Positions 36,219 through 61,084 of a DNA stretch of 64,000 nt are shown here, in pieces. Both the position numbers and the translations under genes were made by a program. The stretch spans positions 48,213 through 112,212 of the forward strand of contig NZ_CBDAQN010000002.1 in NCBI RefSeq assembly GCF_965199065.1. The letters are read 5' to 3'. The stretch is from Acidisoma sp. (lineage in GTDB: Bacteria > Pseudomonadota > Alphaproteobacteria > Acetobacterales > Acetobacteraceae). How positions within the stretch are numbered: the stretch's first letter is position 1; each line of letters opens with the position of its first letter. The notes below the pieces were generated by a model. It made no database searches. It saw only the letters and a program-made list of their open reading frames with translations, and was not told where the DNA came from.

Positions 36219-37496
36219 TTGATGTCGGCCTTGTCGCTCGGCTGCTGGAAGCTTCCTGACCTCAGCCTCAGGCGGCTTTTGCTCTACGGGGCGCTCGCGG
36301 GCCTGAGTGGCTGCAACGCGCCGTTAATGGGCCCCGGGCGGATGGGCACGGCCACTATGACCTTTGGGAACACGGCGTCACTGCCTCCGCCAGCCGGGCG
36401 TGGAGTTGCACTGCTCGCGCCGCTCACCGGCCCGGATGCCGCAGTGGCCCTGGCTCTAGTGAACGCCGCCAAGCTTGGTCTCGGGACCGGGACGGTGCCG
36501 CCCCTTGAGGTGTTCGACACCGGCAGCACGCCGGCAGGTGCCAATGCTGCTGCGACTGCGGCGGTCGCCCAAGGCGCGGGCCTCATCCTCGGACCATTGA
36601 CCGATGTAGAGACTAGCGCCGTCGCCCTTACCATGACCGCCTCCCATGTCGACGTGCTCGCCTTCACCTCGGATGGCGCGGCGGCGCGGCCCGGCATCTG
36701 GACCTTGGGGATCACGCCCTTGGAGCAGGTCCAGGCATTAGTGCGCGCCGCCAAGGCGAGCGGCCACGGCGAGATCGCCGGCCTGCTGCCGCTGACGCCG
36801 TTAGGCGAGGCCATGGCTCAGGCCCTCCGGACGGAGGAGCCCGACGCGCGGATACAGTTCTACGGCGACTTCGCCTCGATGAACGCGGCGACGCGCAGTC
36901 TGTCGAACTACGAAACGCGCCGCGGCCCGGTCGACGCGCAGATCAAGGAGTTGCGGGGGGAGCACACAGCGGCAGCCTCGGCCGAGGCCTCCCGCCTCGC
37001 GCGGCAGCCGGTGCCGCCGCCACCCTTCAACGCGCTGGTGATTGCCGAAACCGGACGGGGGCTGGAGGAACTCGCGAGCCTCCTCGCCTATTATGATGTA
37101 AACCCGGGTCCGGTTCTCGTCCTTGGCCCAGGTTTGTGGGCCGCTTATCCTGCGGCGGTCGCAGCGGCCGGTCTCGGCGGTGCCCTTTATGCCGCCCCCG
37201 ATCCGGCCGCGGCCGCGGATTTCGTCTCGCGCTATACGCTGCAGTTCGGAAGCACGCCGCCAGCCTTGGCCGCCGTTGCCTTCGACGCCGGCGCCATTGC
37301 CCGGACAGCGACGGAGGCCGGCGGCCTCGATCTCACGGCGCTGACAAATCCAGCGGGCTTCAGCGGGGCGGATGGCGTGCTGGCGCTGCAGCCGGACGGT
37401 TCTGTCCGTCGTGGGCTCGCCGTGTTTCGGGTCCAGGCGGATGGCTCGCAGATCGTCCGGCCGGCACCCGCAGCTCTCCCGGCGCCGCTCCTTTAG
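36219..37496 (+). CDS. periplasmic-binding-fold lipoprotein, penicillin-binding-protein activator (LpoA/LppC)-like
   Basis: Lipobox LAGLSGC, then an Ala-rich type-I PBP-like fold (..VALLAPLTGPDAAVALALVNAAKLGL..LILGPLT..). Probable ATG at 36222. Confidence 0.5.
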   Translation: MMSALSLGCWKLPDLSLRRLLLYGALAGLSGCNAPLMGPGRMGTATMTFGNTASLPPPAGRGVALLAPLTGPDAAVALALVNAAKLGLGTGTVPPLEVFDTGSTPAGANAAATAAVAQGAGLILGPLTDVETSAVALTMTASHVDVLAFTSDGAAARPGIWTLGITPLEQVQALVRAAKASGHGEIAGLLPLTPLGEAMAQALRTEEPDARIQFYGDFASMNAATRSLSNYETRRGPVDAQIKELRGEHTAAASAEASRLARQPVPPPPFNALVIAETGRGLEELASLLAYYDVNPGPVLVLGPGLWAAYPAAVAAAGLGGALYAAPDPAAAADFVSRYTLQFGSTPPALAAVAFDAGAIARTATEAGGLDLTALTNPAGFSGADGVLALQPDGSVRRGLAVFRVQADGSQIVRPAPAALPAPLL

Positions 37497-38308
37497 CGAA
37501 ACGCCAGCAGCCAGACGATCCACAATGCGGCGCAAAGGCCTGGGCCGAATGGCAGGCGCGTGGTCGCGCGCACCCCTTCGCCACGCCGCACGGCGTCCAC
37601 CAGAGCCACGGCCAGGGTCAGCAGCGCGCCGCCGAGCAACACGCCGGAGAGTGCGGTGACGCCGACCCAGGCGCCCGCTGCCGCCATCAGCTTGGCATCG
37701 CCTTCGCCAAGCCCATCCCGGCCGCGGAGCCGCCGATAGGACCAGGAGACGCCACGGAAGAGCAGGTAGCCCAGCGCCGCCGCCGCCGCATGGGCCGTGA
37801 GCGTCTCAGGTTCCAGCCAGAAGGTTGCCGCCAACCCCGCCAGCACGAGCGGCAAGGTGAGGGCGTCCGGCAGGATGAACGCCTCGCAGTCGATCCACGC
37901 CAGCGCCAGCAGCGTCCAGCCAAGCGCGCAGCCGCAGCAGAGCGTGGTGGGGTCGGGCAGCACAGCGGCGGCGATCGCGGCCACCGCGAGCGCCGCAAGT
38001 TCGATGGCGATGTGGAACGGAGCGATTTGCGCGCCGCACTTGCGGCATCGGCCCCGCAGCATGAGGTAGCTTGCGATAGGCACTAATTCTGCGGCACCGA
38101 GAGGCCGGCGGCACGTCTCGCAGCGGGACCGGTCGAGCATGACGGGCGCGCCCGCAGGCAAGCGCCGGATGAGGACCCCGAGAAAGCTGCCGATGACAGG
38201 CGACACGATGAGCGCAAAAAGCCAGACGGGCAGGGTGGTGGTCAGGCCGCTGCCTCCAAATTCTTCTCTGATCCGTTTAAGACGACGCGCTTGCGATTGG
38301 TCTGCCAC
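37493..38308 (-). CDS. gspO: prepilin peptidase / N-methyltransferase (A24 family)
   Basis: CETC..(20 aa)..CRKC zinc motif after the first TM. Polytopic, with conserved Asp regions (..GEGDAKLMAAAGAWVG..). Confidence 0.9.
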   Translation of the reverse strand: MADQSQARRLKRIREEFGGSGLTTTLPVWLFALIVSPVIGSFLGVLIRRLPAGAPVMLDRSRCETCRRPLGAAELVPIASYLMLRGRCRKCGAQIAPFHIAIELAALAVAAIAAAVLPDPTTLCCGCALGWTLLALAWIDCEAFILPDALTLPLVLAGLAATFWLEPETLTAHAAAAALGYLLFRGVSWSYRRLRGRDGLGEGDAKLMAAAGAWVGVTALSGVLLGGALLTLAVALVDAVRRGEGVRATTRLPFGPGLCAALWIVWLLAFR

Positions 38309-38356
38309 TCGTGAGACGCCGAAGATGGCCTACGGGACGATGTTTAGGACACCAAG

Positions 38357-40117
38357 ATGGTCGCGATAAGACTGCCATGGAGATCCGCGGCGGCTGGCGC
38401 CAACGAGGCGCCACCGCCGTCCCTGCCGCGCGACCGGGACGACAGGCTCGACCGGTTGGCTGGCATCATGATCGCGCGCGGGCTCTGCGACGACCGGGGC
38501 CTCGACCGCGCGCGACGGATCGCCGACGAGTCCGGCCAGCGTGTCGACGGCGTTCTCATCCAGCTTGGCCTGCTGACGGAGCGCGGCCTCGCTTCAGCCT
38601 ATGCCGAGCTGCTGGACCTGCCGGTGGCCGCCCCCTCCCGTTTTCCGGCCGAGCCCATCCTTCCCGAGCGGTTGACCGCGCGCTTCCTGCGCCACGCACG
38701 GGCCTTGCCGGTTGCGATAGAAGCAGGACGGCTGGTCATCGCGGTCGCCGACCCTCTCGACCGCTTCACTCCGGCGGCCATTGCCTCCGCCACCGGACAC
38801 ACGGTCGCGATGGAGGTCGCCGTCCCGATCGATCTGGAGGCCGCGTTCGAGCGGCTTTACCCCGATGCCGCTGATGAGACCGCGGCAGCCGATGCTGAGG
38901 CCGAAGGCTCCGAGGAGGATGCCGAGCGGCTGAAGGATCTGGCAAGTGAGGCGCCGGTCATTCGCCTCGTCGCCCAGATCATCTCCCGGGCCGTCGAAGC
39001 CCAGGCCTCCGATATCCACCTCGAACCCTTCGAGGATCGCCTCCGCATCCGCTACCGGCATGACGGCGTCCTGCATGAGGTGGATTCGCAGCCCGCACGC
39101 CTCATCCCGGCCATCATTTCCCGGGTCAAGATCATGGCAAGGCTCGATATTGCTGAGCGACGGCTCCCTCAGGACGGCCGCATCAAGCTCCCCGTGCGCG
39201 GGCAGGATATCGACTTCCGCGTCTCCACCATTCCGTCGCTGCACGGCGAGACGGTGGTGCTGCGTATTCTCGACCGCGGGACGGTCTCGCTCGACTACGA
39301 CAAACTGGGGCTTGCCCCGGCGGTCGTCGGGCGGCTGAACAGCGCGCTGCATCTGCCGAACGGCATCGTGCTCGTCACCGGGCCGACCGGCAGCGGCAAG
39401 ACGACGACGCTCTACACCGGCATCATCCAGATCAACTCGACCATGCGGAAGATCATGACCGTCGAGGACCCGATCGAGTATCAGATCCCCGGCATCACCC
39501 AGACCCAGATCAAGCCGCAGATCGGCCTGACCTTCGCTCATGTGCTCCGGTCGATCCTCCGCCAGGACCCGAACGTCGTCATGATCGGCGAAATCCGCGA
39601 CCTCGAGACGGCGCAGATCGCGGTCAACGGCGCTCTCACCGGGCGTCTCGTGCTGTCGACGCTGCACACCAACTCCGCCGCCTCCAGCATCACCCGGCTG
39701 CGCGACATGGGGCTGGAGGATTACCTCATCACCGCCGTCCTGCGCGGCGTGCTCGCCCAGAGGCTGGTGCGCCGGCTCTGCCCCGATTGCCGCCTGCCCG
39801 TCGCCGCCGCCCCCGAACTCGTCCGGCGCTTCGACCTCGAGCGGCGCTGCGAGGGCGGCCCGATCACCCTCTATCGTCCGGTCGGCTGCCCGCACTGCCG
39901 CGAGACCGGCTACCGAGGCCGTCAGGCCGTCGCCGAGTTCCTACTGCCCGACGAGCGCATCGAGCGCCTCATCTTCAGCCGCGCTGAGCAGTCGGACATC
40001 GAGCGGGCGGCCGTCGAGGGCGGCATGGTGACCATGTTCGAGGCTGGGATCGCGGCGGCGCTCGCCGGCACCACGACGCTGGAAGAGGTGGTGCGGACCT
40101 TGCGCGGCGAGGCCTGA
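38357..40117 (+). CDS. gspE: type II secretion ATPase
   Basis: T2SSE_N-like N-terminus. Walker A GPTGSGKTTTLY, Asp box, Walker B VVMIGEIRD, His box LVLSTLHTN, and tetracysteine CPDC..CPHC. Confidence 0.95.
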   Translation: MVAIRLPWRSAAAGANEAPPPSLPRDRDDRLDRLAGIMIARGLCDDRGLDRARRIADESGQRVDGVLIQLGLLTERGLASAYAELLDLPVAAPSRFPAEPILPERLTARFLRHARALPVAIEAGRLVIAVADPLDRFTPAAIASATGHTVAMEVAVPIDLEAAFERLYPDAADETAAADAEAEGSEEDAERLKDLASEAPVIRLVAQIISRAVEAQASDIHLEPFEDRLRIRYRHDGVLHEVDSQPARLIPAIISRVKIMARLDIAERRLPQDGRIKLPVRGQDIDFRVSTIPSLHGETVVLRILDRGTVSLDYDKLGLAPAVVGRLNSALHLPNGIVLVTGPTGSGKTTTLYTGIIQINSTMRKIMTVEDPIEYQIPGITQTQIKPQIGLTFAHVLRSILRQDPNVVMIGEIRDLETAQIAVNGALTGRLVLSTLHTNSAASSITRLRDMGLEDYLITAVLRGVLAQRLVRRLCPDCRLPVAAAPELVRRFDLERRCEGGPITLYRPVGCPHCRETGYRGRQAVAEFLLPDERIERLIFSRAEQSDIERAAVEGGMVTMFEAGIAAALAGTTTLEEVVRTLRGEA

Positions 40118-40121
40118 CCTC

Positions 40122-41339
40122 ATGCCCGCCTTCCGCTATGTCGCGATCGACCCGGCGGGCAAGATGGCGCGCGGCGTCATGGAGGCCGCGAACGAGGCGG
40201 CGGTCGTGCAGCGCCTGCGACGGGACGGCCATCTGCCGGTCCGCACCGAACCCGACACTGGCGGCTCCTTCCTTGGGCGCATCAATATCGAGATCACGCG
40301 CAGCGGGCTCGGCGCCAAGGACCTCGCCAACTTCACCCGGGAACTTTCCATCATGCTGGCGGCGGGGCAGGATCTCGACCGCGCGCTGCGCTTCCTCGTC
40401 GAGACGTCCGCAAGCCGCCGACTGGCCGCGGTGGTGGAGCAGTTGCGCGGCGCGGTCCGGGACGGCGATTCGTTGGCCGTCGCGATGGGCAAGCAAGGTG
40501 GCAGCTTTCCCCGCCTCTATGTCGGCATGGTGCGCGCCGGCGAGGCGGGCGGCACTCTGGCGACCACGCTCGACCGGCTCGCTCTGGTGCTCGAGCGGCA
40601 GCGCAGCCTGTCGTCCTCCGTGCGGTCGGCCATGGTCTATCCGACGCTGCTGTTCATCGCGATGATCGGCTCGGTGTCGTTCCTGCTGACCTCGGTGCTG
40701 CCGGAGTTCGTGCCCCTGTTCGCCCAGAACGGCGCCAAGCTCCCGGCCTCGACGCAACTCCTCGTCGATCTCGGCCACGTCGTGGCGACCGATGGGCTCT
40801 ATATCCTCATCGGGCTCGCCGTCTGCGCGTTGCTGATCGTCCAGGCGCTGCGCCAGCCGCGCATCCGCTTGGTGTTCGACCGTCTGATGCTCCGGCTGCC
40901 CATCCTCGGGCGGCTGGCGCGCGAGGTGCTGGCGGCGCGGTTCAGCCGCACCTTCGGGACGCTCATGCTCAACGGCGTGCCGCTGATCGCCGCCTTGGGC
41001 ATCGTGCGGGAGGCGATCGGCAATCGCGCTGCGGTCGCCGCCGTCGATGCCGCGACGGTCAGCGCCAAGAGCGGCAGCGGCCTGTCGCGCCCTCTATCCG
41101 AGGCCGGCATCTTCCCGGTCCGCATGATCTATCTGCTGCGCCTCGGCGAGGAAACGGCGCAGCTGGGCCAGATGGCGCTGCGCGCCGCCGAGATCCACGA
41201 GGAGGAGACACGGCTCGGCATTCAGCGGCTGGTGTCGCTGCTGGTGCCCGCCATCACCATTCTGATGGGCGCGGCGGTCGCCGGGATCGTGTCCTCGCTG
41301 ATCCTCGCCATGCTCAGCCTGAACAACCTTGCCGGCTGA
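40122..41339 (+). CDS. gspF: type II secretion inner-membrane platform protein
   Basis: 405 aa with two T2SSF repeats (..FTRELSIMLAAGQDLDRALRFL.. and ..FSRTFGTLMLNGVPLIAAL..) and 3 TM segments. Confidence 0.9.
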   Translation: MPAFRYVAIDPAGKMARGVMEAANEAAVVQRLRRDGHLPVRTEPDTGGSFLGRINIEITRSGLGAKDLANFTRELSIMLAAGQDLDRALRFLVETSASRRLAAVVEQLRGAVRDGDSLAVAMGKQGGSFPRLYVGMVRAGEAGGTLATTLDRLALVLERQRSLSSSVRSAMVYPTLLFIAMIGSVSFLLTSVLPEFVPLFAQNGAKLPASTQLLVDLGHVVATDGLYILIGLAVCALLIVQALRQPRIRLVFDRLMLRLPILGRLAREVLAARFSRTFGTLMLNGVPLIAALGIVREAIGNRAAVAAVDAATVSAKSGSGLSRPLSEAGIFPVRMIYLLRLGEETAQLGQMALRAAEIHEEETRLGIQRLVSLLVPAITILMGAAVAGIVSSLILAMLSLNNLAG

Positions 41340-41787
41340 GACGCCCCGCGCCCGGACGGCGGGTTTCACGCTCATCGAGGTGCTGGTGGTCCTGGTCATT
41401 CTGGGGCTGACCATCGCGCTGATCGTGTCGCGTGGGCCTGCCCGCAGCACGGGCTTCGATCTCCGCGCGACCGCCGGGGACATCGCCCAGCAGCTGCGCC
41501 TCGCCCGGTCGGAGGCCATCGCGACAGACCGGCTGACGCGCTTCACCCTGAACCCCGCCGGCCGGCGGTACGAGACGAACGGAGTCGCCGGGCCTCTCCT
41601 CCCGCCGGAAGTCGCCGTTGCCATGACGACGGAGACGGGCGGCAAGCCGCGGCCGCTGAGCGCCATCACCTTCGCGCCCGACGGCAGTTCCTCCGGCGGG
41701 CGCGTGGTTCTGGTGGCGGGCGTCAACGCCGTGGCGGTCGTCGTGGACTGGCTGACCGGCCGGGTGAGCGTCACGAATGCGGCGTGA
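41329..41787 (+). CDS. gspH: minor pseudopilin GspH-like
   Basis: Prepilin motif G|FTLIEVLVVLVILGL. C-terminus ..ITFAPDGSSSGGRVVL....DWLTGRVSV is typical of GspH. Confidence 0.75.
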   Translation: MPAETPRARTAGFTLIEVLVVLVILGLTIALIVSRGPARSTGFDLRATAGDIAQQLRLARSEAIATDRLTRFTLNPAGRRYETNGVAGPLLPPEVAVAMTTETGGKPRPLSAITFAPDGSSSGGRVVLVAGVNAVAVVVDWLTGRVSVTNAA

Positions 41788-43975: not shown

Positions 43976-43993
43976 GCTGCTAATCCGTCGGCC

Positions 43994-47585: not shown

Positions 47586-47590
47586 TACTG

Positions 47591-49507: not shown

Positions 49508-49516
49508 AACCATCGT

Positions 49517-54200: not shown

Positions 54201-55979
54201 AAAGGCATCGATGTCCTTCTCGAGGCCTACGCAAAGGCTTTTCGCAGCTCGGACGACGTTCGCCTCGTCATCAAGGTGTTCCCCAATCCGCATAACACGG
54301 TGGCGCAGCAGCTGGCCGGCTTGCAGACGGCGGACAGTAATGCGCCTGCAATCACCCTGATCGATGACGACATCTCCGAAACGGAATTGGTGGACCTCTA
54401 CCGAAACGCCGACGCAGTTGTGCTTCCAACCCGCGGCGAAGGGTTCAATATCCCGGCGGCCGAGGCGATGGCGGCCGGAATCCCTCTCATCGTCACCGGG
54501 CACGGCGGACACATGGACTTCTGCGACCGATCCGTCCGGTTGGTAGATTACAGCTTCGCGCCTTCCGGGAGCCACCTCGCGGCGAGTGGCTCGCTCTGGG
54601 CAGACCCGGATGCGGACGACCTGACGAACGCCTTGCGCGAGGCTGTTTTGGACCGGTTGCCGAGGCCGAGTCCGGCCCAACTACCAGATGCGAGAACCTT
54701 CGCGGAAAGCATCATCGCGACCTCGGCAGAGCTCCTGTTGCTTCCGCCACCGCCGCCGCTGCGTATCGGCTGGGTGTCGAGCTGGGGCGTGCGCTGCGGG
54801 ATCGCGGAATACTCCCGTCATCTGCTGGATGCGATGCTCGCCTCGGACGAACCGGGCGCGGAGGGCGGCTCACCTCCAGAGGTCACGGTTCTTTGCGACA
54901 CGCGGACGTCCACCGAGGCACCCGAGGCGCTGGATGCCACCATCCGGCCCTCCTGGGACCTTTTTCTTCTCGACGGGGCCAAGCCACTCATTCGCGCGGT
55001 AGCCGAGACCGATCCTGATGTGCTGGTGATCCAGCATCAACCTGGACTGATCGTCTGGAACTCGCTGGCGGAATTACTCGCCTCGGAAACCGTCCGGCAG
55101 CGGCCGGTCGTACTGGTTCTCCACACCACGCAACGCATCCTCGACATCACCGAGGAAGATCGCACGGCGATCATAGCCGCGCTGAGGGGTGTTGCCCGCG
55201 TCGTCGTTCACACGGTCAATGACGTGAACCGGCTGAGGAAGCTCGGACTGGTCGCGAACGTGGTGATGATACCGCAAGGGGCCGTGCCTCTGGGCGAACC
55301 GGTGGTGCTTTCCATCGCGCCAGCCGAAGAGCGTCGTTTCATCATCGGATGCTACGGCTTCTTCTTCAGCGAGAAGGGGATTTTGCAACTTATCGAGGCG
55401 TTCGGGCAACTGCGCGCGCGTGATGGTCGCCTCCGGCTACGCCTCGTCAATGCCCAGTACGGCACGGTGGAGTCCGCAGCGGAGATTGCCCGTTGCCGCG
55501 CCGCGGCCGAGGCTGCCGGTCTTGCCGACGCGGTAGAATGGCACACGAATTTTCTGCCCGATCAGGAGTCGCGCCGGCTTCTCGGCGAGTGCGATCTCAT
55601 CGCACTTCCCTATCAGACGTCGAAAGAGGGATCGAGCGCGGCGTTGCGGATGGCGATGTCCGCCGGTGTGCCTGTGGCGGTCACGCCGTTGCCGCTGTTC
55701 GATGAGGCTGAAGCCGCTGTGTTTCGCTTCAGCGGCACTGGGAGCGCCGATATAGCAGATGGGATTGCCCACCTCCTCAATCGGCCTGAGGAGCGGCAGG
55801 CAATCCGGGCGGAGATGAAATCCTGGATGACGAGCCGCGAATGGCCCCGCGTCGCCACGCGCTTTGGAGGCATGCTCCAGGGGCTGCGTTCCAATTGGAA
55901 AAGCGGCAATGTCATTCAGCCGTGCGCCAGTGATAACTCCACAGTGCCTGGGCCCGCGGCTGCCGCGACGGTAGACTGA
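51273..55979 (+). CDS. 1568-aa fusion protein: FkbM methyltransferase, coiled coil, three GT4 glycosyltransferase domains
   Basis: aa 15-215 SYAQNFEDVLLWRAL..YIDVGAG..LKVDVEGAE. aa 245-375 Ala/Glu/Arg heptad-rich. SWRITAPLRRL. GT4 motifs SRHEGFGVPLIEAMAHDLPVL, PTRGEGFNIPAAEAMAAGIPLI, and a weaker third (PYQTSKEGSSAALRMAMSAGVPV). Confidence 0.8.
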   Translation: MGSLDCDARGSPTVTFVSYAQNFEDVLLWRALRGVENGFYIDVGAGHPDIDSVSRAFYDRGWHGINIEPTVEFSRRLAAARPRDINLQLVLGEHPGRATLFVVDGTGLSTMVPAGVDAIREAGKESHRVEVAMDTLANLCREHAPESIHFLKVDVEGAERAVLAGADFMSFRPWIVVVEATAPMSSVMTHDTWEFMLLEAGYRFVWFDGLNRFYLSSERHDALAHAFQAPVNVFDDFIRASDTEWARRIQAAENHASDRVVKLLERAITAEVRADHESLSAAHARVRIDETWREAQQLRAALQDERAQRLAAEAEAEALTRRAEAAESNAVGQATHAKAETMRARYEQQRSAINEQLRREAMAAFEAIHRSTSWRITAPLRRLRSRRNAAGPVITQPPLPEPPAELAIAREERSIFASSGLMASGRERRPAPPRTKVHQYHSGAATGDAITNSMLLTRQRLRDLGYESEIFVSFRDPSLAHELRLADDLPRHDRYVLIVRHSMGFDAFDAVASVPAPKILLYHNITPPDLLQGDAFMQRYAILGREQLKKWRSVVGGSLADSEYNAIELRAHGFYPVQVCNTLFDADALLARAASTLKVKEADCFTILFVGRVVRSKGQAELVDVFAAFRNRYRKPCRLVLVGRHGDAKDDYLISIKSRLKEYGIASDVVLTGPVSDDDLHAWYASADVYLSLSRHEGFGVPLIEAMAHDLPVLALPVAAVPYTLGGTGGLLEDDSISGVVGRLLDLAEGEERQAGLIARQRAALERVRWERHKDAFMQTLTAAGAAPSVPRETEALLLSSITFTVTGHVSGSYSLATINRTLALALDIARPGDVRLAPVEGTPTTTISGLPGQDLTKIEALVARPRPMTAPHVVISQHYPVYVPSDPGDLSLAYFFWEESLIPLKTIEGLNKNFRAILAPTVFVAKTLIDSGLSLPVRVVGYAPRLEGFEALAATRKAAAGHPFTFLHVSSGFPRKGIDVLLEAYAKAFRSSDDVRLVIKVFPNPHNTVAQQLAGLQTADSNAPAITLIDDDISETELVDLYRNADAVVLPTRGEGFNIPAAEAMAAGIPLIVTGHGGHMDFCDRSVRLVDYSFAPSGSHLAASGSLWADPDADDLTNALREAVLDRLPRPSPAQLPDARTFAESIIATSAELLLLPPPPPLRIGWVSSWGVRCGIAEYSRHLLDAMLASDEPGAEGGSPPEVTVLCDTRTSTEAPEALDATIRPSWDLFLLDGAKPLIRAVAETDPDVLVIQHQPGLIVWNSLAELLASETVRQRPVVLVLHTTQRILDITEEDRTAIIAALRGVARVVVHTVNDVNRLRKLGLVANVVMIPQGAVPLGEPVVLSIAPAEERRFIIGCYGFFFSEKGILQLIEAFGQLRARDGRLRLRLVNAQYGTVESAAEIARCRAAAEAAGLADAVEWHTNFLPDQESRRLLGECDLIALPYQTSKEGSSAALRMAMSAGVPVAVTPLPLFDEAEAAVFRFSGTGSADIADGIAHLLNRPEERQAIRAEMKSWMTSREWPRVATRFGGMLQGLRSNWKSGNVIQPCASDNSTVPGPAAAATVD

Positions 55980-56201: not shown

Positions 56202-57107
56202 ATGAGTCAACTTTTTGGAAACAGCCACATGAACAATATCGCTAGTAGCGAAACCGCAAGCCGAAGGTTTATTGGAAAGATTGGCGCAGGTGCCGTCGCT
56301 CTCTGCGCGTTGGCTGGTCTTGCGAGCAAGCCGGCAAAAGCTCAGGCAGACGCTGACGTAAATGTTCTCAACTTTGCTCTCAACCTCGAATACCTCGAAG
56401 CCGAGTACTATTTGCGCGCCGTGACTGGAGCGGGCCTTTCTGCGGCTTACGGAGGAGCAGGCACAGCGGTCGTTCCGACTTCGACCCTGGTCCCCTTCAA
56501 GACGTCAGCAGTAGCTTATTGGGCGCAGCGGATTGCCAATGACGAACTCGCCCATGTGAACTTTCTCCGGATCGCGCTTGGTGCCGCGGCCATTCCCGAG
56601 CCAGTGATCGATCTTGAGACGAGCTTCACCACGCTTGCCGTAGCCGCGGGCCTCATCACGGCGGGCCAAACCTTCAACCCGTTCGCGAGCGAACTCGACT
56701 TCCTCATTGGAGCCTACATCTTCGAAGATGTCGGCGTCACGGCCTATGCCGGAGCCGCCGCCCTTCTGACCGAGCCCAACAATATTGCATACAGCGCCAG
56801 CATCCTCGCGATCGAAGCCGAACATGCCGGCTGCATCCGGGGCTACCTTGCCTCGATTGGCGGCGGAGCGGCTACAGACGCTATTTCCGCGCTGCGTCAG
56901 AAGCTTTCCGGCGTGCAGGACAACGGGACCGATCTCAGCGGGAGCGGTGGCAACCCGTTTTCGTTCGCAAACGACGACTACAACGGCCAGGTGTTCCGCA
57001 GAACGCCGCAGCAGGTGCTTAACATCGTCTACGGTGCACCTGGAACGGGCGTCACGTCCGGTCTGTTCTTCCCCAATGGCGTCAACGGTGCCGTTGCCTC
57101 GACTTAA
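56202..57107 (+). CDS. Tat-signal ferritin-like protein, paralogue 2
   Basis: SRRFIGKIGAGAVALCALAGL..AKAQ signal. NLEYLEAEYY, NDELAHV, FEDVGV, IEAEHAG. Confidence 0.8.
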   Translation: MSQLFGNSHMNNIASSETASRRFIGKIGAGAVALCALAGLASKPAKAQADADVNVLNFALNLEYLEAEYYLRAVTGAGLSAAYGGAGTAVVPTSTLVPFKTSAVAYWAQRIANDELAHVNFLRIALGAAAIPEPVIDLETSFTTLAVAAGLITAGQTFNPFASELDFLIGAYIFEDVGVTAYAGAAALLTEPNNIAYSASILAIEAEHAGCIRGYLASIGGGAATDAISALRQKLSGVQDNGTDLSGSGGNPFSFANDDYNGQVFRRTPQQVLNIVYGAPGTGVTSGLFFPNGVNGAVAST

Positions 57108-57151
57108 GCAAGCCGCCAGCCGATAGCACTAACATCATCGAGGACGCTTCA

Positions 57152-58075
57152 ATGCCTGACAACACAATCAAGACCGTACTCCAGAAGAGTATTGACCGCC
57201 GCCGCTTCATGAGGCGCTCCGGGCTTGGCCTGACCGGATTGGCAACTGCAGTCTCAGGTGCGTTTCTATCCGCCAAGCCCGCGCGCGCTCAGGCCCTGAC
57301 CGACGCGGACATCTTCAACTTTGCTTTGAATTTCGAGTATCTCGGGTCGCAGTATTATCTTGCGGCGCTTGGCACTTCCTTGCCTGCGAGCCTGACAGGT
57401 ACCGGCGCAGGTGCGGTGATCCTGCCGACCCCGACTGCCGTTCCGTTCCAGAACAAGGCCGTTGCTTACTTCGCTCAGCAGCTCGCTGTTGACGAACTCG
57501 CGCACGTCACCGTTATCCGGGAGGCTCTGGCGGCTGAGGGCGCCACTCCGATCCCGCAACCGGTTATCAACCTCAACACGAGCTGGACTTCGCTCGCGGC
57601 GGCGGCAGGATTGATCACTCCGGGCCAGACCTTCAATCCCTTCGCTAGCGAAACCGACTTCCTGCTGGGTGCCTACGTTCTGGAGGATGTTTGCGTCACC
57701 GCACTTTGTGGCGCGGCGCCGCTAATCTCAAGCAAGGTGAACTTGGCCTATGCCGCGTCCATTCTCGGCGTGGAGGGCTACCAGGTCGGCCTCATCAGAT
57801 CGCGTCTATCGGCGATCGGCGCGGATGTCGCTACGGATGCCATCTCCGCTCTTCGGTCGAGCCTCTCGAACACGGTCGTCAACATGGGCGTCAATGATGT
57901 AGGCACAAATGCCTATGGCAACCCCTTCAACTTCACCAATGCTGACAGCAACGCCCAGGCGTTTCGTCGCACCCCCCAGGAAGTTCTGGCGATTGCATAC
58001 GGTGGGGCACCGGCGGGTGGCGGATTCTTTCCGAATGGCGTAAACGGCGCCATCACAACCACGGCTTCCGCCTGA
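57152..58075 (+). CDS. Tat-signal ferritin-like protein, paralogue 3 (altered metal-site motifs)
   Basis: DRRRFMRRSGLGLTGLAT..ARAQ signal. NFEYLGSQYY, VDELAHV, LEDVCV, VEGYQVG (Q where paralogues 1 and 2 have H). Confidence 0.8.
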   Translation: MPDNTIKTVLQKSIDRRRFMRRSGLGLTGLATAVSGAFLSAKPARAQALTDADIFNFALNFEYLGSQYYLAALGTSLPASLTGTGAGAVILPTPTAVPFQNKAVAYFAQQLAVDELAHVTVIREALAAEGATPIPQPVINLNTSWTSLAAAAGLITPGQTFNPFASETDFLLGAYVLEDVCVTALCGAAPLISSKVNLAYAASILGVEGYQVGLIRSRLSAIGADVATDAISALRSSLSNTVVNMGVNDVGTNAYGNPFNFTNADSNAQAFRRTPQEVLAIAYGGAPAGGGFFPNGVNGAITTTASA

Positions 58076-58170: not shown

Positions 58171-58584
58171 TCAATCGTGATGATGGACCCGTACGAACAG
58201 CGCCTCGGCCGCCTGGATGACCTGCGACTGGTAGGAGAGGTTGAGCTGGCGGGTGTGAGAGTGGTAGTCGCCGATTGCCCGCATGAGATCGCCTCGATCC
58301 TCGGCGAGGTAGGTTTTGAGGATCGCCCCGGCTGCGGCGATATTATAGCAGGGCGCGTTGATGAGACGGGCCCGGACCTGACTGGCCGGTTCTCGCGTGT
58401 ATGCCACGAGCGGCCCAATCCAACGCGTGTTGATCTGCATAACCCCTAGGTCCTGCGATCCGTCGGCGTCGTTGCTAATGGTCCCTGGCCGGCCGCCTTC
58501 TATCGCCTGGATAGACGGCAGCACCCGAGGCGGGAGGTGGTAGATCGACGCGACGAGCGCCATGCAAGCGAGGAACGGTATCAC
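58171..58584 (-). CDS. small lytic transglycosylase (SLT domain) protein
   Basis: 137 aa; LPSIQAIEGG (catalytic Glu region) and DLGVMQINTRWI, as in VirB1/IagB-type specialised transglycosylases. Confidence 0.7.
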   Translation of the reverse strand: MIPFLACMALVASIYHLPPRVLPSIQAIEGGRPGTISNDADGSQDLGVMQINTRWIGPLVAYTREPASQVRARLINAPCYNIAAAGAILKTYLAEDRGDLMRAIGDYHSHTRQLNLSYQSQVIQAAEALFVRVHHHD

Positions 58585-59026: not shown

Positions 59027-61084
59027 ATGAAAACACCTCCAACCCTGGCCGTGCTCGAAAGGTCGAGATGGCTCTGGCAACAATTGTATTTGTGGAGGGT
59101 TCCTCTCTTGCAGAAATCAACGTGGGCGCGAACGCGCCTGCAATTCCGGTCGGCGATGCTCGCCGCGACCGCCGCTAGCCTGATCGCAGGCCCGGTGGTT
59201 CCGGCCTTCGCCCAATCCGCCGCCGCGACCGGTGGCGTCGACAATATGGTTGGATCGCCGCCTGCGAGCACTCCGATCCAGCACATCGTCGTCATCATCG
59301 GCGAGAACCGCACGTTCGACCATGTGTTCGCAACGTATCAGCCGCCGCACGGGGAAAAGGTGTTCAACCTCCTCTCCGAGGGCATTATCAACGCGAACGG
59401 CACGCCCGGACCGAACTACCGCAACGCCGGACAGTTCTCGGCCCAGCAGCCGGCCAATTACAGCACGCACCCCGGCGGCAAGGTTCTCTACACGAACCTT
59501 CCGGCGCCCGGCACGGACGGCGCGCCGACCGCGTCGTCAGACAGCAACCCGCCTCCCTTCGCGAGCGTTGCGGCGGTCGCGGCTGTTGAGTCACAGATCA
59601 ACGACGGCCTGCCCAGCGCCGATTACAATCTGCTGACGACGGGCGCGACCGGCCTCGCCTCGGATGTCGCGGACACGCGCATCACGAACGCGAACTCGCT
59701 CCCGGATGGCCCTTATCAGATCACCGGCCCGACCCTGCCGTACGACTCCTATACAGCGAGCCCGGTTCATCGCTTCTACGAGATGTGGCAACAAACTGAT
59801 TGCGCCAAAGGCCATATCACAGCCGCCAATCCTTCCGGCTGCTTGAACGACCTCTTTCCCTGGACCGAAGTCACCGAGGGCGCCGGCACCAACGGCAAGC
59901 CGCAACCCGCCGGGTTCAATAATCTGACAACGGGCGAAGGCTCGGCGTCGATGGGCTTCTTCAACATGGCGCAGGGGGACGCGGCAACGTTCAAGTCGCT
60001 CGCCGACCAGTACACGATCAGCGACAACTACCATCAGGCCATCATGGGCGGCACCGGCGCCAACCACATCGCGCTCGGGACCGGCCTCGCCATCTATTAC
60101 ACCGATGGTCAGGGCAACGTCGCGACGCCGCCCGCGGATGAAATCGAGAACCCCAACAGCCAATCCGGCACCAACAACTGGTGGGTGCAGGACGGCTACT
60201 CGGGCGGTTCATATAGCAATTGCTCGGACGACACGCAGCCGGGCGTGACGGCAGTCCGCACCTACCTCAAGTCTCTGCCGTCGAAGCCCGCCCTGAAGTG
60301 CAAGAAGGACGCCTACTACCTTCTCAACAACTACAACCCGGGCTACTTCGGGGACGGCACCGTCAACACCTCGACCTTCACCGTGCCGCCTTCGCCGGTG
60401 CACACGATCGCGGATGTCCTGAACGCGCACAACATCTCCTGGAAATACTACGGCGCCGGATGGGACAACTACGTGGCCAACCCGTCGAGCGACCTCGGCG
60501 GCCTCTATTGCAACATCTGCAATCCCTTCCTGTATGAAACCAACATCATGACGAGCGCGACGCAGCGCTCGACGCATCTGAAGGACGTGCCGGATCTGGT
60601 CTCCGACATCAGCACCGGCAATCTGCCGGCGGTCTCGATCATCAAGCCCGATGGCCTGCTCGACGGACATCCGGCTTCGTCTAAGCTCGATCTCTTCGAA
60701 GCCTTCGCCAGCAACATCGTCTCCGAGATCCAGGCCAACCCCAAGCTGTGGGCGCATACCGCGATCCTCATCACCTTCGACGAGGGCGGTGGATACTGGG
60801 ACTCGGGCTACATCCAGCCGCTCGACTTCTTCGGCGACGGCACGCGTATCCCGGCGATTATGGTCTCGCCCTACTCCACCGGCGGCCATGTCACCCACGT
60901 CTACGCAGATCATGTCTCGTTCCTGAAGTTCATCGAGCGGAACTGGGGTCTCGAGGCGGTCTCCAAGAGCGGCCGTGACAACCTGCCTGACCCGATCGCC
61001 TACGCCAACAACCCGTATGCTCCGGTCAACAGCCCGGCCATCGGCGACCTGATGGATATGTTCAACTTTTACCAGAAGAACTGA
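59027..61084 (+). CDS. phosphoesterase-family protein (phospholipase C / AcpA acid phosphatase family), secreted
   Basis: IQHIVVIIGENRTFDHVFATY is the phosphoesterase-family N-terminal motif. Signal-like MLAATAASLIAGPVVPAFAQS; the true start is probably downstream of 59027 (e.g. ATG 59156). Confidence 0.75.
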   Translation: MKTPPTLAVLERSRWLWQQLYLWRVPLLQKSTWARTRLQFRSAMLAATAASLIAGPVVPAFAQSAAATGGVDNMVGSPPASTPIQHIVVIIGENRTFDHVFATYQPPHGEKVFNLLSEGIINANGTPGPNYRNAGQFSAQQPANYSTHPGGKVLYTNLPAPGTDGAPTASSDSNPPPFASVAAVAAVESQINDGLPSADYNLLTTGATGLASDVADTRITNANSLPDGPYQITGPTLPYDSYTASPVHRFYEMWQQTDCAKGHITAANPSGCLNDLFPWTEVTEGAGTNGKPQPAGFNNLTTGEGSASMGFFNMAQGDAATFKSLADQYTISDNYHQAIMGGTGANHIALGTGLAIYYTDGQGNVATPPADEIENPNSQSGTNNWWVQDGYSGGSYSNCSDDTQPGVTAVRTYLKSLPSKPALKCKKDAYYLLNNYNPGYFGDGTVNTSTFTVPPSPVHTIADVLNAHNISWKYYGAGWDNYVANPSSDLGGLYCNICNPFLYETNIMTSATQRSTHLKDVPDLVSDISTGNLPAVSIIKPDGLLDGHPASSKLDLFEAFASNIVSEIQANPKLWAHTAILITFDEGGGYWDSGYIQPLDFFGDGTRIPAIMVSPYSTGGHVTHVYADHVSFLKFIERNWGLEAVSKSGRDNLPDPIAYANNPYAPVNSPAIGDLMDMFNFYQKN

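What the first reader, a model, noticed from the sequence alone, without database searches (positions are those of the whole stretch)
36219..61084. Candidate undescribed system: plasmid-borne T2SS island interleaved with Tat-ferritin-like cargo genes, a methyltransferase/glycosyltransferase machine and cell-wall remodelling genes
A full gsp gene set lies within 25 kb (O, E, F, H, I, J, L, M, C/N-like, D, K, G). Interleaved with it are:
- three paralogous twin-arginine-signal ferritin-like proteins;
- two divergently transcribed FkbM methyltransferases, one fused to a coiled coil and three GT4 domains;
- a VirB1-like small lytic transglycosylase;
- an LpoA-like lipoprotein whose stop codon overlaps the gspO stop (TTAG at 37493-37496);
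- a PLC/AcpA-type phosphoesterase.

T2SSs export proteins already folded in the periplasm, including Tat substrates such as Pseudomonas PlcH/PlcN. Substrate genes are also often linked to dedicated T2SSs, as with Hxc and LapA. A T2SS coupled to secreted di-iron ferritin-like proteins and a cytoplasmic methyl-glycan synthase is not an arrangement I know to be described. The function could lie in iron or oxidative-stress handling, desiccation tolerance or surface-matrix biology.
Basis: inference. Interest (0 to 1): 0.75.

Follow-up and report, generated by a model that had tools for sequence, protein, structure and literature searches.

The report
Secretion system dedicated to ferritin-like proteins
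A complete type II secretion system on an Acidisoma plasmid is consistently linked, across many alphaproteobacteria, to Tat-exported ferritin-like metalloproteins related to desiccation proteins. In the Acetobacteraceae it is also linked to a giant cytoplasmic sugar-polymer synthase, a combination I found described nowhere.

Summary
Window 37.5-58.6 kb encodes a full T2SS (gspO, E, F, H, I, J, L, M, N/XpsN-like, D, K, G). It also encodes three Tat-signal Ferritin_2 proteins, a small FkbM methyltransferase, a 1,555-aa FkbM-coiled-coil-3xGT4 protein and a small SLT lytic transglycosylase. A RepA/ParAB replicon module lies next to it.

The linkage is not a one-off. Of 45 species-level loci with adequate flanks around the giant gene, 33 carry Ferritin_2 genes, 22 also carry gsp genes and 17 carry the SLT. 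Gene order falls into at least five arrangements. In one genome gspK overlaps the giant gene's start by 1 nt.

Ferritin_2 is the hub. It occurs with the glycan genes but without gsp in 11 loci. It sits within or beside T2SS clusters that lack the GT in Rhizobium (2 species) and Methylobrevis. On a Methylobacterium plasmid it lies beside TatABC, a GT61 and a Tad machine.

The LpoA-like gene and the phosphoesterase are not conserved members.

Best model: a T2SS dedicated to Tat-exported dinuclear-metal Ferritin_2 proteins (an H-type/Q-type pair). Acetobacteraceae add a methyl-capped glycan that partners with, or decorates, this cargo. Secretion, the glycan acceptor and the catalytic activity are all inferred. 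I rate it a new variant of a known kind, of moderately high interest.

The parts
37493..38308 (-). gspO prepilin peptidase
   Evidence: PF06750 + PF01478. Six hydrophobic segments. Conserved in related loci.
38357..40117 (+). gspE secretion ATPase
   Evidence: T2SSE 456 bits plus an MshEN N-domain.
40122..41339 (+). gspF inner-membrane platform protein
   Evidence: T2SSF, two stretches. TM segments present.
41329..42798 (+). Minor pseudopilins gspH (41329-41787), gspI (41777-42202) and gspJ (42199-42798)
   Evidence: GspH and N_methyl domains. GspI is XpsI-like at 59.8 bits, below the cut-off. T2SSJ is weak at 20 bits.
42923..44569 (+). gspL-like (42923-43975) and gspM (43994-44569)
   Evidence: A PilN domain at the C-terminus of the L-like protein, with one TM at residues 197-229. 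T2SSM_b at 87.6 bits.
44566..45246 (+). gspN/XpsN-like protein (GspC-equivalent candidate); start uncertain (44566 or ATG 44587)
   Evidence: No Pfam or NCBIfam hit. N-terminal TM segment. The homologue in L008 has a weak PF28060 XpsN hit. Conserved next to gspM and gspD in related loci.
45243..47585 (+). gspD secretin
   Evidence: N0, Secretin_N x3 and Secretin domains.
47591..48394 (+). gspK minor pseudopilin
   Evidence: T2SSK_1st at 58 bits. In L037 gspK overlaps the start of the giant GT gene by 1 nt.
48574..49464 (+). Ferritin_2 protein 1 (H-type), Tat signal SNRRNLLK...AMA|Q
   Evidence: PF13668 at 126.7 bits. Sequence. Ligand columns E, ExxH, ED, ExxH.
49517..49942 (-). gspG major pseudopilin (the ORF runs to 50074; likely start is M45, leader MRVSVAGEDTQAG|FTLLE)
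   Evidence: T2SSG at 113.6 bits plus N_methyl. Sequence. Paired with the SLT gene in 16 of the 17 loci that carry gspG.
50076..51083 (-). Small FkbM-family methyltransferase; no TM segment or signal peptide; immediately upstream of gspG on the same strand
   Evidence: PF05050 at 80.5 bits and TIGR01444 at 102 bits. No TM segment. Present in 32 of 45 loci.
51312..55979 (+). Giant cytoplasmic FkbM methyltransferase - coiled coil - Pro-rich linker - three GT4 modules (1,555 aa)
   Evidence: Pfam hits. Six-species alignment with the EX7E motifs of modules 1 and 2 invariant. No TM segment. 334 relatives found in the GTDB species genomes.
56202..57107 (+). Ferritin_2 protein 2 (H-type), Tat signal SRRFIGK (the public record starts 9 codons later)
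   Evidence: PF13668 at 129.9 bits. 100% identical to an Acidisoma sp. protein. The AF2 model is a four-helix bundle whose best PDB fold match is RvFeMP-1.
57152..58075 (+). Ferritin_2 protein 3 (Q-type: ExxQ in helix 4, plus G66/C178/L182 signature), Tat signal RRRFMRR
   Evidence: PF13668 at 114.9 bits. This class makes up 26 of 77 linked proteins. The same H/Q tandem occurs in Methylobacterium.
58171..58584 (-). Small specialised lytic transglycosylase (SLT; TrbN/IagB-like)
   Evidence: PF01464 at 23.9 bits against a 21.3-bit cut-off. TrbN and IagB models match below their cut-offs. Present in 17 of 45 loci.
59027..61084 (+). AcpA/PLC-type phosphoesterase: a strain-specific neighbour and possible extra cargo, not a conserved member
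   Evidence: PF04185 at 183 bits. NCBIfam acid-phosphatase and PC-PLC models match below their cut-offs. No RR motif. Found in 1 of 45 loci, at 24% identity.

Best explanation
This is a type II secretion system dedicated to a specific cargo family. The cargo is Tat-exported dinuclear-metal proteins of the Ferritin_2 family, which also contains Deinococcus DRB0118, tardigrade FeMP and plant PCC13-62.

Proposed sequence of events:
1. The ferritin-like proteins fold and acquire their two metal ions in the cytoplasm. An H-type and a Q-type paralogue probably form a heterodimer, alongside a solitary H-type protein.
2. Their twin-arginine signals take them through Tat into the periplasm.
3. The linked T2SS pushes them across the outer membrane. 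Its secretin and pseudopilus are inserted through the cell wall with the help of the linked small lytic transglycosylase.
4. In Acetobacteraceae the module also includes a cytoplasmic glycan factory: a giant FkbM-coiled-coil-3xGT4 enzyme plus a second FkbM methyltransferase. Other species add a further GT4, GDP-mannose-dehydratase-type enzymes and a membrane acyltransferase. This factory builds a methyl-terminated, GDP-hexose-derived polymer in the manner of WbdA/WbdD.
5. I take this glycan to be an envelope or matrix polymer on or in which the secreted ferritin-like proteins work. The likely role is extracellular stress protection (desiccation, oxidative or metal stress), possibly through phosphatase chemistry.

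What the sequence shows directly: the gene inventory, the Tat motifs, the invariant metal ligands, the absence of TM segments or signal peptides in the GT and MT enzymes (which I read as a cytoplasmic location), and the conserved linkage.

What is inferred: secretion by this T2SS, heterodimer formation, the identity of the metal and the chemistry, the glycan's structure, acceptor and export route, and the physiological role.
For: Completeness and cargo signals:
- The T2SS is complete by domain content.
- 70 of 72 linked Ferritin_2 proteins have an RR motif followed by an h-region.
- E63, E115, H118, E175, D176 and E205 are invariant in 77 of 77 proteins. There are two conserved classes, H208 (51) and Q208 (26).

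Linkage in Acetobacteraceae:
- Of 45 species loci, 33 have Ferritin_2, 22 have Ferritin_2 plus gsp, 20 have at least 3 gsp genes and 17 have the SLT.
- There are at least five different gene orders.
- In L037 gspK overlaps the giant gene's start by 1 nt.
- The same island lies on the Acidisoma PAMC 29798 plasmid.

Hub topology:
- Ferritin_2 occurs with the GT but without gsp in 11 loci. Gsp occurs with the GT but without Ferritin_2 in only 1.
- Ferritin_2 sits within or directly beside T2SS clusters that have no GT in Rhizobium sp. TH2, Rhizobium sp. DKSPLA3 and Methylobrevis albus.
- The Methylobacterium plasmid carries tatCBA, a GT61, Ferritin_2 and a Tad machine, plus an H/Q tandem pair.

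Family biochemistry:
- 41% identity to the D. radiodurans MP1 ferritin-like protein, which I take to be DRB0118.
- The best fold matches are RvFeMP-1 structures.
- PMC11616004 shows that RvFeMP-1 and DRB0118 are dinuclear-metal phosphatases.

Glycan module:
- It has a polymerase-plus-terminator architecture.
- A 36%-identical Lysobacter homologue lies between an ABC-2 (Wzm-type) permease and GDP-mannose 4,6-dehydratase.
- Acyl_transf_3, an extra GT4 and epimerases recur in the loci.

Precedents:
- The Tat-to-T2SS route is documented in PMC4899797.
- A cargo-linked T2SS in Acetobacteraceae (LsdA) is documented in PMC2765452.
Against: - There is no experimental secretion data for any member.
- Many Ferritin_2 genes are solitary: S. 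meliloti, Paraburkholderia and two Hyphomicrobiales contigs. The link is therefore clade-specific.
- 11 of 45 giant-GT loci have neither Ferritin_2 nor gsp genes nearby.
- No initiating transferase, flippase or ABC exporter, and no ligase or O-oligosaccharyltransferase, was found in any Acetobacteraceae locus. The proposed surface glycan therefore has no visible export route.
- The Acetobacteraceae loci share ancestry, so the counts are not independent events.
- The helix-4 ligand is ExxH/Q, not the Asp of RvFeMP-1, so phosphatase chemistry may not transfer.
- No Pho-box, EcfG-promoter or shared upstream motif was found to indicate a regulon.
Confidence: 0.5

Rival explanations
1. Glycoprotein route. 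The soluble cytoplasmic GT and MT enzymes glycosylate and methylate the folded ferritin-like proteins themselves. The glycoprotein then crosses the inner membrane through Tat and the outer membrane through the T2SS.
For: - Ferritin_2 is the hub that links the GT and the secretion machine.
- The module has no lipid-carrier pathway genes.
- The giant, the small FkbM and the Methylobacterium GT61 all lack TM segments and signal peptides.
- In an independent lineage, a different GT family (GT61) lies between a plasmid-borne tatCBA and a Ferritin_2 gene.
- Tat transports folded proteins (established knowledge).
Against: - I know of no precedent for Tat export of a cytoplasmically glycosylated protein.
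- The MT-coiled-coil-multi-GT4 architecture is typical of polyprenol-linked polymer synthesis. The Lysobacter homologue sits in a Wzm/Gmd cluster.
- Membrane Acyl_transf_3 enzymes recur in 11 loci.
- The Rhizobium and Methylobrevis clusters have no GT at all.
- The giant also occurs without Ferritin_2 (11 of 45 loci).
Confidence: 0.27
2. Co-located but functionally independent modules. A surface-polysaccharide gene set, a T2SS and stress-protein genes travel together as an envelope island, or are merely co-regulated. There is no direct mechanistic coupling, and the T2SS has other or general cargo.
For: - GC3 differs between the gsp operon (0.76-0.91) and the Ferritin_2/gspG/FkbM/giant block (0.66-0.74).
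- Each pairwise link can be broken in some genomes.
- Methylobrevis has S8 peptidases and a reprolysin next to its T2SS, which could be its cargo.
Against: - Linkage survives at least five rearrangements across genera.
- Gene junctions are operon-level tight: gspK and the giant overlap, and the small FkbM is immediately followed by gspG.
- The association recurs in three orders or families, with non-orthologous machines and non-homologous GTs.
Confidence: 0.13
3. Filament glycosylation. The GT and MT enzymes modify the major pseudopilin GspG (or the Flp pilin in Methylobacterium). The ferritin-like proteins are merely co-regulated periplasmic proteins.
For: - gspG has been moved out of the pseudopilin operon and sits next to the small FkbM, the SLT and the giant in most loci.
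- Pilin glycosylation is well known for type IV pili (own knowledge).
- The GT61 lies near an Flp pilin gene.
Against: - Known pilin glycosylation uses periplasmic oligosaccharyltransferases and lipid-linked donors, and none is present.
- GT plus Ferritin_2 without any gsp gene occurs in 11 loci.
- A three-module polymerase with a terminator is excessive for pilin decoration.
Confidence: 0.06

Closest known systems
Cargo-linked dedicated T2SSs: Pseudomonas aeruginosa Hxc-LapA (own knowledge) and Gluconacetobacter diazotrophicus LsdA levansucrase T2SS (PMC2765452, citing Arrieta 2004)
   Same: A complete gsp cluster is genetically linked to the gene(s) of the protein it secretes. The LsdA example is in the same bacterial family.
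   Different: - The cargo is a Ferritin_2 metalloprotein family never reported as a T2SS substrate.
- The cargo uses Tat rather than Sec.
- The cluster also carries a glycan synthase and a lytic transglycosylase.
- gspG is displaced from the operon.
Tat-dependent T2SS substrates PlcH/PlcN of P. aeruginosa (PMC4899797)
   Same: The predicted two-step route: Tat export of a folded protein, then T2SS secretion.
   Different: - The cargo is unrelated.
- The phosphoesterase next to this island belongs to the PlcH/AcpA superfamily but lacks an RR motif and is not conserved with the island.
Ferritin_2 / FeMP family: tardigrade RvFeMP-1, Deinococcus DRB0118, plant PCC13-62 (PMC11616004)
   Same: - PF13668 membership.
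- Four-helix bundle whose best fold match is RvFeMP-1.
- 41% identity to the D. radiodurans MP1 ferritin-like protein, which I take to be DRB0118.
- N-terminal export signal.
- Dinuclear-site ligands conserved.
   Different: - Twin-arginine signals.
- ExxH or ExxQ in helix 4 instead of the Asp ligand of RvFeMP-1.
- Conserved H-type/Q-type paralogue pairs.
- Conserved GLFFPNGxNG C-terminal motif.
- Genomic coupling to secretion machines and GTs.
ABC-transporter-dependent O-polysaccharide polymerase/terminator systems: E. coli O9a WbdA-WbdD (PMC3482155), Klebsiella multi-module enzymes (PMC11231755), Geobacillus WsaE (own knowledge)
   Same: Several GT4 modules combined with a terminating methyltransferase and a coiled coil. 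A distant homologue lies in a Lysobacter Wzm/Gmd cluster.
   Different: - All modules are fused in one polypeptide with an FkbM-type methyltransferase.
- No Wzm/Wzt, initiating transferase or ligase is linked in 45 Acetobacteraceae loci.
- It is linked instead to a T2SS and its putative cargo.
Vibrio cholerae biofilm matrix: T2SS-secreted RbmA/RbmC/Bap1 encoded between the vps polysaccharide clusters (own knowledge)
   Same: Genes for secreted proteins and for a partner polysaccharide are clustered, and the proteins leave the cell by a T2SS.
   Different: - In Vibrio the T2SS is the general Eps system, encoded elsewhere.
- The proteins are lectin-like, not metalloproteins.

Membership tests
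Type II secretion system (Gsp) | Outer-membrane secretin with N0, Secretin_N and Secretin domains | tested here: met
   45243-47585: PF21305, PF03958 x3 and PF00263, all above their cut-offs.
Type II secretion system (Gsp) | GspE ATPase, GspF platform protein and GspO prepilin peptidase | tested here: met
   T2SSE 456 bits, T2SSF 141.6 bits, A24_N_bact plus Peptidase_A24.
Type II secretion system (Gsp) | Major pseudopilin GspG and minor pseudopilins H, I, J, K | tested here: met
   T2SSG 113.6 bits, GspH 33.6 bits and T2SSK_1st 58.3 bits are above their cut-offs. I and J are identified by N_methyl plus sub-threshold XpsI and T2SSJ hits and by position.
Type II secretion system (Gsp) | Assembly platform GspL/GspM and the secretin-coupling protein GspC | tested here: inconclusive
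   GspM (T2SSM_b) is met. The L-like protein matches only a PilN domain. The N/XpsN-like ORF has no hit in the window, and no GspC or PDZ protein was found.
Type II secretion system (Gsp) | Demonstrated secretion of periplasmic folded proteins | not testable with these tools
   Needs secretome comparison of wild type with gspD and gspE mutants.
Ferritin_2 (PF13668) / ferritin-like metabolite phosphatase (FeMP) family | Sequence membership in PF13668 and relatedness to a characterised member | tested here: met
   114.9-129.9 bits against a 24.7-bit cut-off. tblastn gives 41% identity over residues 95-300 to the D. radiodurans MP1 ferritin-like protein, which I take to be DRB0118.
Ferritin_2 (PF13668) / ferritin-like metabolite phosphatase (FeMP) family | Four-helix-bundle fold with a dinuclear metal site | tested here: met
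   AF2 model with pLDDT 77 and core above 90. Top PDB fold hits are 8w9k and 8kce (RvFeMP-1), but weak at E about 1e-2 and TM about 0.4. E63, E115, H118, E175, D176 and E205 are invariant in 77 sequences. Helix 4 carries ExxH/Q rather than the Asp162 of RvFeMP-1.
Ferritin_2 (PF13668) / ferritin-like metabolite phosphatase (FeMP) family | Metal-dependent phosphatase activity | not testable with these tools
   Needs enzyme assays. The metal could be Fe, Mn or Zn/Mg.
Tat (twin-arginine) substrates | (S/T)RRxFLK-like motif, then an h-region, then an AxA cleavage site | tested here: met
   The three window proteins carry it. So do 70 of 72 linked homologues and the Rhizobium, Methylobrevis and Methylobacterium homologues.
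Tat (twin-arginine) substrates | Export dependent on TatABC | not testable with these tools
   Needs a tatC mutant or an RR-to-KK variant. The only supporting observation is a plasmid-borne tatCBA next to a homologue in Methylobacterium.
ABC-transporter-dependent polysaccharide polymerase/terminator (WbdA/WbdD-like) | Multiple GT4 polymerising modules plus a terminating methyltransferase and a coiled coil | tested here: met
   FkbM (93.9 bits) plus three Glycos_transf_1 stretches. There is a heptad-rich 250-370 region. EX7E is invariant in modules 1 and 2. The resemblance is one of architecture only. There was no direct sequence comparison with WbdA or WbdD, and none appeared in the PDB sequence searches with the giant.
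ABC-transporter-dependent polysaccharide polymerase/terminator (WbdA/WbdD-like) | Linked Wzm/Wzt exporter and initiating or adaptor transferases | tested here: not met
   Absent from the window island, and no such family recurs among the ORFs of the Acetobacteraceae loci. Present only beside the 36%-identical Lysobacter homologue.
Specialised lytic transglycosylases of secretion systems (VirB1/TrbN/IagB) | Small SLT-domain protein encoded within a secretion-system cluster | tested here: met
   PF01464 at 23.9 bits against a 21.3-bit cut-off. It co-occurs with gspG in 16 loci. The TrbN (73 bits against 246) and IagB (35 bits against 208) equivalog cut-offs are not reached, so it is not an orthologue of either.
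   16.7 bits against a 28.8-bit cut-off. The protein is Peripla_BP_6 at 46.6 bits. There is no NCBIfam hit. It is present in 3 of 45 loci.
   PF04185 is met at 183 bits. However, the PC_PLC (136 bits against 580) and acid_phos_Burk (161 bits against 363) models match below their cut-offs. The N-terminus has no RR motif.

The most novel reading that the evidence does not exclude
The cytoplasmic FkbM/GT4 machinery (and the GT61 in Methylobacterium) glycosylates and methylates the folded, metal-loaded ferritin-like proteins before export. Tat would then carry a glycoprotein across the inner membrane, and a dedicated type-IV-filament-family machine (a T2SS, or Tad in Methylobacterium) would carry it across the outer membrane. 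This would be a previously unknown bacterial protein-glycosylation and secretion route producing extracellular DRP-like stress-protection glycoproteins.
Probability: 0.25. Interest if true: 0.85.

Novelty: new variant of a known kind. Interest (0 to 1): 0.62.

Why it matters
Ferritin_2 proteins (plant PCC13-62, Deinococcus DRB0118, tardigrade FeMPs) are repeatedly tied to desiccation and radiation tolerance. Where and how they act is still unclear.

A conserved genomic coupling to Tat signals and to a dedicated outer-membrane secretion machine predicts that the bacterial members work outside the cell. It also offers tractable systems for testing this. The Rhizobium clusters contain essentially only the T2SS plus one ferritin-like gene.

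The finding adds a new cargo family and a new accessory set (a glycan synthase and a lytic transglycosylase) to T2SS biology. The displaced gspG, the tight GT-gsp operon junctions and the Methylobacterium tatCBA-GT61-ferritin-Tad parallel raise a testable question: can glycosylated folded proteins travel through Tat?

The host organisms are lichen- and peat-associated acidophiles, for which drying, metals and oxidative stress are ecologically central.

Tried and rejected
- Phosphate-starvation regulon. A Pho-box scan gave 4 hits against 3.2 expected. Only a 3-mismatch site lies upstream of the phosphoesterase. Not supported.
- General-stress (EcfG) promoter GGAAC-N16/17-CGTT. There is one hit, outside the island. 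Rejected.
- Shared upstream k-mers before 50 ferritin-like genes. Nothing appeared beyond coding-sequence carry-over.
- Sigma-70 promoter and terminator scan of 46-61.5 kb. Counts were close to those of shuffled sequence. Uninformative.
- Rfam scan of the whole window. No hits.
- Megablast of the island against PLSDB. Only short hits, so the island is not a known plasmid. The related Acidisoma plasmid was seen only as a 72%-identical 457-bp hit, and its island became clear from the annotated context.
- PDB sequence searches. The ferritin-like protein gave nothing significant. The giant's N-terminal 383 aa gave nothing significant. The GT modules gave only generic GT4 hits.
- LpoA identity for 36219-37496. 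Rejected.
- The phosphoesterase and the Peripla_BP_6 protein as conserved members. Rejected.
- Literature searches for any prior description of a ferritin-like/T2SS association. Nothing relevant found.
- One context look-up (Methylopila protein P0188) returned no record.

Full report
**Origin and setting**

The window matches an Acidisoma sp. (Acetobacteraceae) contig of about 129 kb. The protein encoded at 56202-57107 is 100% identical to an NCBI Acidisoma protein. Immediately upstream of the finding lie RepA_C (33327-34613, -), ParA (32113-33330, -) and ParB (30950-32029, -). 'Plasmid-borne' is therefore reasonable. A related strain, Acidisoma sp. PAMC 29798 from an Antarctic lichen, carries the same island on a 204-kb circular plasmid. 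In other genera the module lies on contigs of 1-5 Mb, presumably chromosomes.

**Checking the observation**

Pfam scans confirm every component.

- The T2SS genes are gspO, E, F, H, I, J, an L-like protein with a PilN domain and one TM segment, gspM (T2SSM_b), an N/XpsN-like ORF, gspD, gspK and gspG.
- gspG lies apart from the other pseudopilin genes, on the minus strand at 49517-49942.
- There are three Ferritin_2 proteins.
- A small FkbM methyltransferase lies divergent from a giant protein with FkbM, a coiled coil and three GT4 modules.
- There is a 137-aa SLT protein and a PF04185 phosphoesterase.

The three ferritin-like proteins carry SNRRNLLK, SRRFIGK and RRRFMRR motifs. Each is followed by a hydrophobic stretch and an AxA-Q site. 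The TTAG convergent stop overlap at 37493-37496 is exact.

- The 'LpoA-like' protein is a Peripla_BP_6 protein whose LppC score is below threshold.
- The phosphoesterase lacks a twin-arginine motif and matches the NCBIfam acid-phosphatase and PC-PLC models below their cut-offs.
- The giant gene most likely starts at GTG 51312.
- gspG most likely starts at M45 of its ORF.

**Is the linkage conserved?**

I first looked at the contigs encoding five homologues of the ferritin-like protein (61-86% identity). All five had the giant FkbM-3xGT4 gene next to one or two Ferritin_2 genes.

- One contig had the full window layout (L001).
- Three had only scattered gsp parts: an XpsN-like ORF, or L, M and N.
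- One, Lichenicoccus roseus, had none.

I then scanned one genome per GTDB species using an alignment of six giant proteins. This gave 334 relatives, of which 80 were kept. Nearly all are Acetobacteraceae: Acidisoma, Acidocella, Acidisphaera, Lichenicoccus, Lichenicola, Roseomonas, Rubritepida and Rhodovastum. Outliers were found in Aliidongia, Lysobacter and Polaromonas.

I ran tblastn of all window proteins against these loci. Among the 45 loci with at least 5 kb on both sides of the giant gene:

| Feature within the locus | Loci (of 45) |
|---|---|
| Ferritin_2 | 33 |
| Small FkbM | 32 |
| Ferritin_2 plus at least one gsp gene | 22 |
| At least three gsp genes | 20 |
| SLT | 17 (16 of them together with gspG) |
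| Ferritin_2 without gsp | 11 |
| Neither Ferritin_2 nor gsp | 11 |
| gsp without Ferritin_2 | 1 |
| Phosphoesterase | 1 (24% identity) |
| Peripla_BP_6 protein | 3 |

Gene order differs among genera in at least five arrangements. In some genomes the giant gene directly follows gspK. In L037 the gspK stop overlaps the giant's start by 1 nt, and in L068 the gap is 30 bp. Retention of the same gene set through repeated rearrangement, together with operon-level junctions, argues for functional coupling rather than inherited synteny.

**The ferritin-like protein is the hub**

Within Acetobacteraceae the Ferritin_2-GT link (33 of 45) is tighter than the Ferritin_2-gsp link (22 of 45). GT-gsp without Ferritin_2 is almost absent (1 of 45).

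Outside the family, the Ferritin_2-T2SS link appears without any GT:

- In Rhizobium sp. TH2 plasmid pTH2c, the ferritin-like gene sits between divergent gspN-M-L-E and gspD-O-F-G-H-I-J-K operons.
- Rhizobium sp. DKSPLA3 has the mirror arrangement, with the ferritin-like gene heading gspE-L-M-N.
- In Methylobrevis albus it abuts gspK...D and gspE.
- These T2SSs are only distantly related to the window's. For TH2, GspE is 45% and GspF 29% identical.

A 55.8-kb Methylobacterium plasmid offers a third variation. It carries tatC-tatB-tatA, a GT61 glycosyltransferase without TM segments or a signal peptide, a ferritin-like gene, and then a complete Flp/Tad machine with a secretin. It also carries a tandem ferritin-like pair elsewhere and an acyltransferase.

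Other homologues are solitary or have different neighbours: S. meliloti pSymA, Paraburkholderia (next to an Nramp transporter and an ECF sigma factor), a Sphingomonas tandem pair, and two Hyphomicrobiales contigs. The coupling is therefore recurrent but clade-specific.

**The cargo family**

An alignment of 77 module-linked proteins shows invariant E63, E115, H118, E175, D176 and E205 in Fer2 numbering.

- It shows two conserved classes: H-type (51 proteins, ExxH in helix 4) and Q-type (26 proteins, ExxQ, with co-varying G66, C178 and L182).
- The window has one solitary H-type gene (Fer1) and an H/Q tandem (Fer2, Fer3).
- The Methylobacterium plasmid has the same 1+2 layout, with the same H/Q signature.
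- Twin-arginine motifs occur in 70 of 72 proteins. The two exceptions have KR.

[quoted passage not shown] Its best PDB matches are the tardigrade RvY_06210/RvFeMP-1 structures, although the scores are weak. tblastn against plasmids finds the D. radiodurans MP1 ferritin-like protein, which I take to be DRB0118, at 41% identity.

PMC11616004 reports the following:

- RvFeMP-1 and DRB0118 are dimeric dinuclear-metal phosphatases.
- The family (PF13668) includes the plant desiccation protein PCC13-62.
- RvFeMP-1 and PCC13-62 carry N-terminal secretory signals.

The proteins here differ in having a full E/ExxH/E(D)/ExxH set, which resembles di-iron or di-manganese carboxylate sites. The metal and the chemistry therefore remain open. 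From established Tat biology, the Tat signal fits cytoplasmic folding and metal loading (inference).

**The glycan module**

The giant protein contains, in order:

- an FkbM methyltransferase;
- a heptad-rich region of about 120 residues ending in a conserved S-T-S-W-R-I/L-T-x-P-L-R motif;
- a proline-rich linker;
- three GT4 modules. EX7E is invariant in modules 1 and 2, and module 3 has an invariant K-E-x-S-S-A-x-x-R.

Neither the giant nor the small FkbM has a TM segment or a signal peptide.

The architecture resembles the polymerase-plus-terminator logic of ABC-transporter-dependent O-polysaccharide synthesis (WbdA/WbdD, PMC3482155; multi-module Klebsiella enzymes, PMC11231755). This is a resemblance of architecture, not tested homology. 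A 36%-identical Lysobacter arvi homologue lies between an ABC-2 (Wzm-type) permease and GDP-mannose 4,6-dehydratase.

De novo clustering of about 1,000 ORFs from the loci, with Pfam annotation of representatives, found these recurrent extras:

- a 552-aa GT4 (17 loci);
- GDP-mannose-dehydratase-type epimerases (11 loci);
- a roughly 406-aa family that I take to be the Acyl_transf_3 membrane acyltransferase (11 loci);
- in some loci a Methyltransf_24, found by Pfam.

It found no exporter, initiating transferase, flippase, ligase or oligosaccharyltransferase. The glycan is therefore probably a methyl-capped polymer derived from a GDP-hexose (mannose or 6-deoxyhexose). Its acceptor and export route are unknown.

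**Mechanism**

My best-supported model (confidence about 0.5) is a T2SS dedicated to Tat-exported Ferritin_2 metalloproteins. The SLT would serve as a cell-wall-clearing accessory. In Acetobacteraceae a co-evolving glycan would partner the cargo at the cell surface or in the matrix.

The main rival (about 0.27) is also the most novel reading. In it, the cytoplasmic GTs glycosylate the cargo itself before Tat export.

- For it: the hub topology, the missing lipid-carrier genes and the Methylobacterium tatCBA-GT61-ferritin arrangement.
- Against it: the polymerase architecture, the membrane acyltransferases, the GT-free Rhizobium clusters and the lack of any precedent.

Independent co-location (about 0.13) and pseudopilin glycosylation (about 0.06) are less likely.

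Regulatory clues were sought and not found. There was no Pho-box or EcfG-promoter enrichment, no shared upstream motif and no Rfam element.

The block holding the ferritin-like genes, gspG, the small FkbM and the giant has lower GC3 (0.66-0.74) than the gsp operon (0.76-0.91). This may reflect a separate origin or expression-linked codon usage.

**Novelty**

Full-text searches found no description of a ferritin-like/T2SS association, and none of this glycan-T2SS cluster. The individual parts are known kinds: a T2SS with linked cargo, the Tat-to-T2SS route, Ferritin_2/DRP proteins and WbdA/D-like synthases. The combination and the cargo family are new, so I file it as a new variant of a known kind.

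It matters because it predicts an extracellular site of action for an enigmatic family of stress proteins. It also offers simple genetic systems for testing that prediction, and it raises the possibility of glycoprotein export through Tat.

Noticed in passing
window 30950-34613 (-): A replicon module of RepA_C (428 aa), ParA (405 aa) and ParB/SopB-HTH (359 aa) lies directly upstream of the island. This is consistent with a plasmid or chromid. Roseomonas sp. KE2513 has a weak RepA_C hit about 3 kb upstream of its solitary giant-GT gene.
   Followed up: partly
window 48574-58075 versus 37493-48394: There is a compositional step. The ferritin-like genes, gspG, the small FkbM and the giant GT have GC3 of 0.66-0.74, against 0.76-0.91 for the gspO-gspD genes (gspK 0.72). 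The ferritin-like genes are the lowest (GC profile).
   Followed up: partly
window 17508-29215: There are two RND efflux systems. One is a membrane-fusion protein 17526-18812 with an AcrB-like pump 18757-22014 (+). The other, on the minus strand, is AcrB-like 22573-25665, HlyD-like 25675-26838 and OEP 26842-28440, with a divergent TetR/AefR-type regulator at 28505-29215.
   Followed up: no
window 11853-17014 (-): A haem-copper quinol-oxidase-like operon (COX2 with a COX_ARM motif, COX1, COX3) and a DUF2189 membrane protein are carried on the same putative plasmid.
   Followed up: no
window 1183-10706: A separate exopolysaccharide-type gene set is present: GT4, an Acyl_transf_3, a STAND/AAA_16 NTPase (4015-5325), a Wzz/GNVR chain-length protein (5334-7445) and a 1,069-aa protein with two CBM60 modules and a marginal GH26 hit (7497-10706, -). 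A low-GC stretch follows at 10-12 kb. No ABC exporter was seen here either.
   Followed up: no
window 58978-58995 (+): A weak Pho-box-like direct repeat (CATTCATGAAACCGTCAT, 3 mismatches) lies 32 nt upstream of the phosphoesterase start. It is not significant on its own: 4 hits in the window against 3.2 expected.
   Followed up: partly
window 61166-63118 (+): A 650-aa protein has about eight N-terminal hydrophobic segments fused to an SPFH/Band-7 (HflK-like) domain. It lies directly downstream of the phosphoesterase and is not conserved with the island.
   Followed up: no
L092 (Paraburkholderia largidicola plasmid), locus 6588-10044: A ferritin-like homologue is flanked by an ECF sigma/anti-sigma pair and an Nramp divalent-metal transporter. 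This hints that Mn or Fe is the physiological metal.
   Followed up: no
L099 (Methylobrevis albus), locus 2895-7537 and 20627-20915: Two about 720-aa S8 subtilases with PPC domains and a reprolysin-type metalloprotease flank the T2SS and ferritin-like cluster. They are possible additional cargo of that T2SS.
   Followed up: no
window 52300-52420 (giant protein residues ~371-381) and homologues: A conserved S-T-S-W-R-(I/L)-T-x-P-(L/V)-R motif closes the coiled-coil region of the giant protein in all six aligned species. Its role is unknown. It may be a docking or membrane-association element.
   Followed up: no
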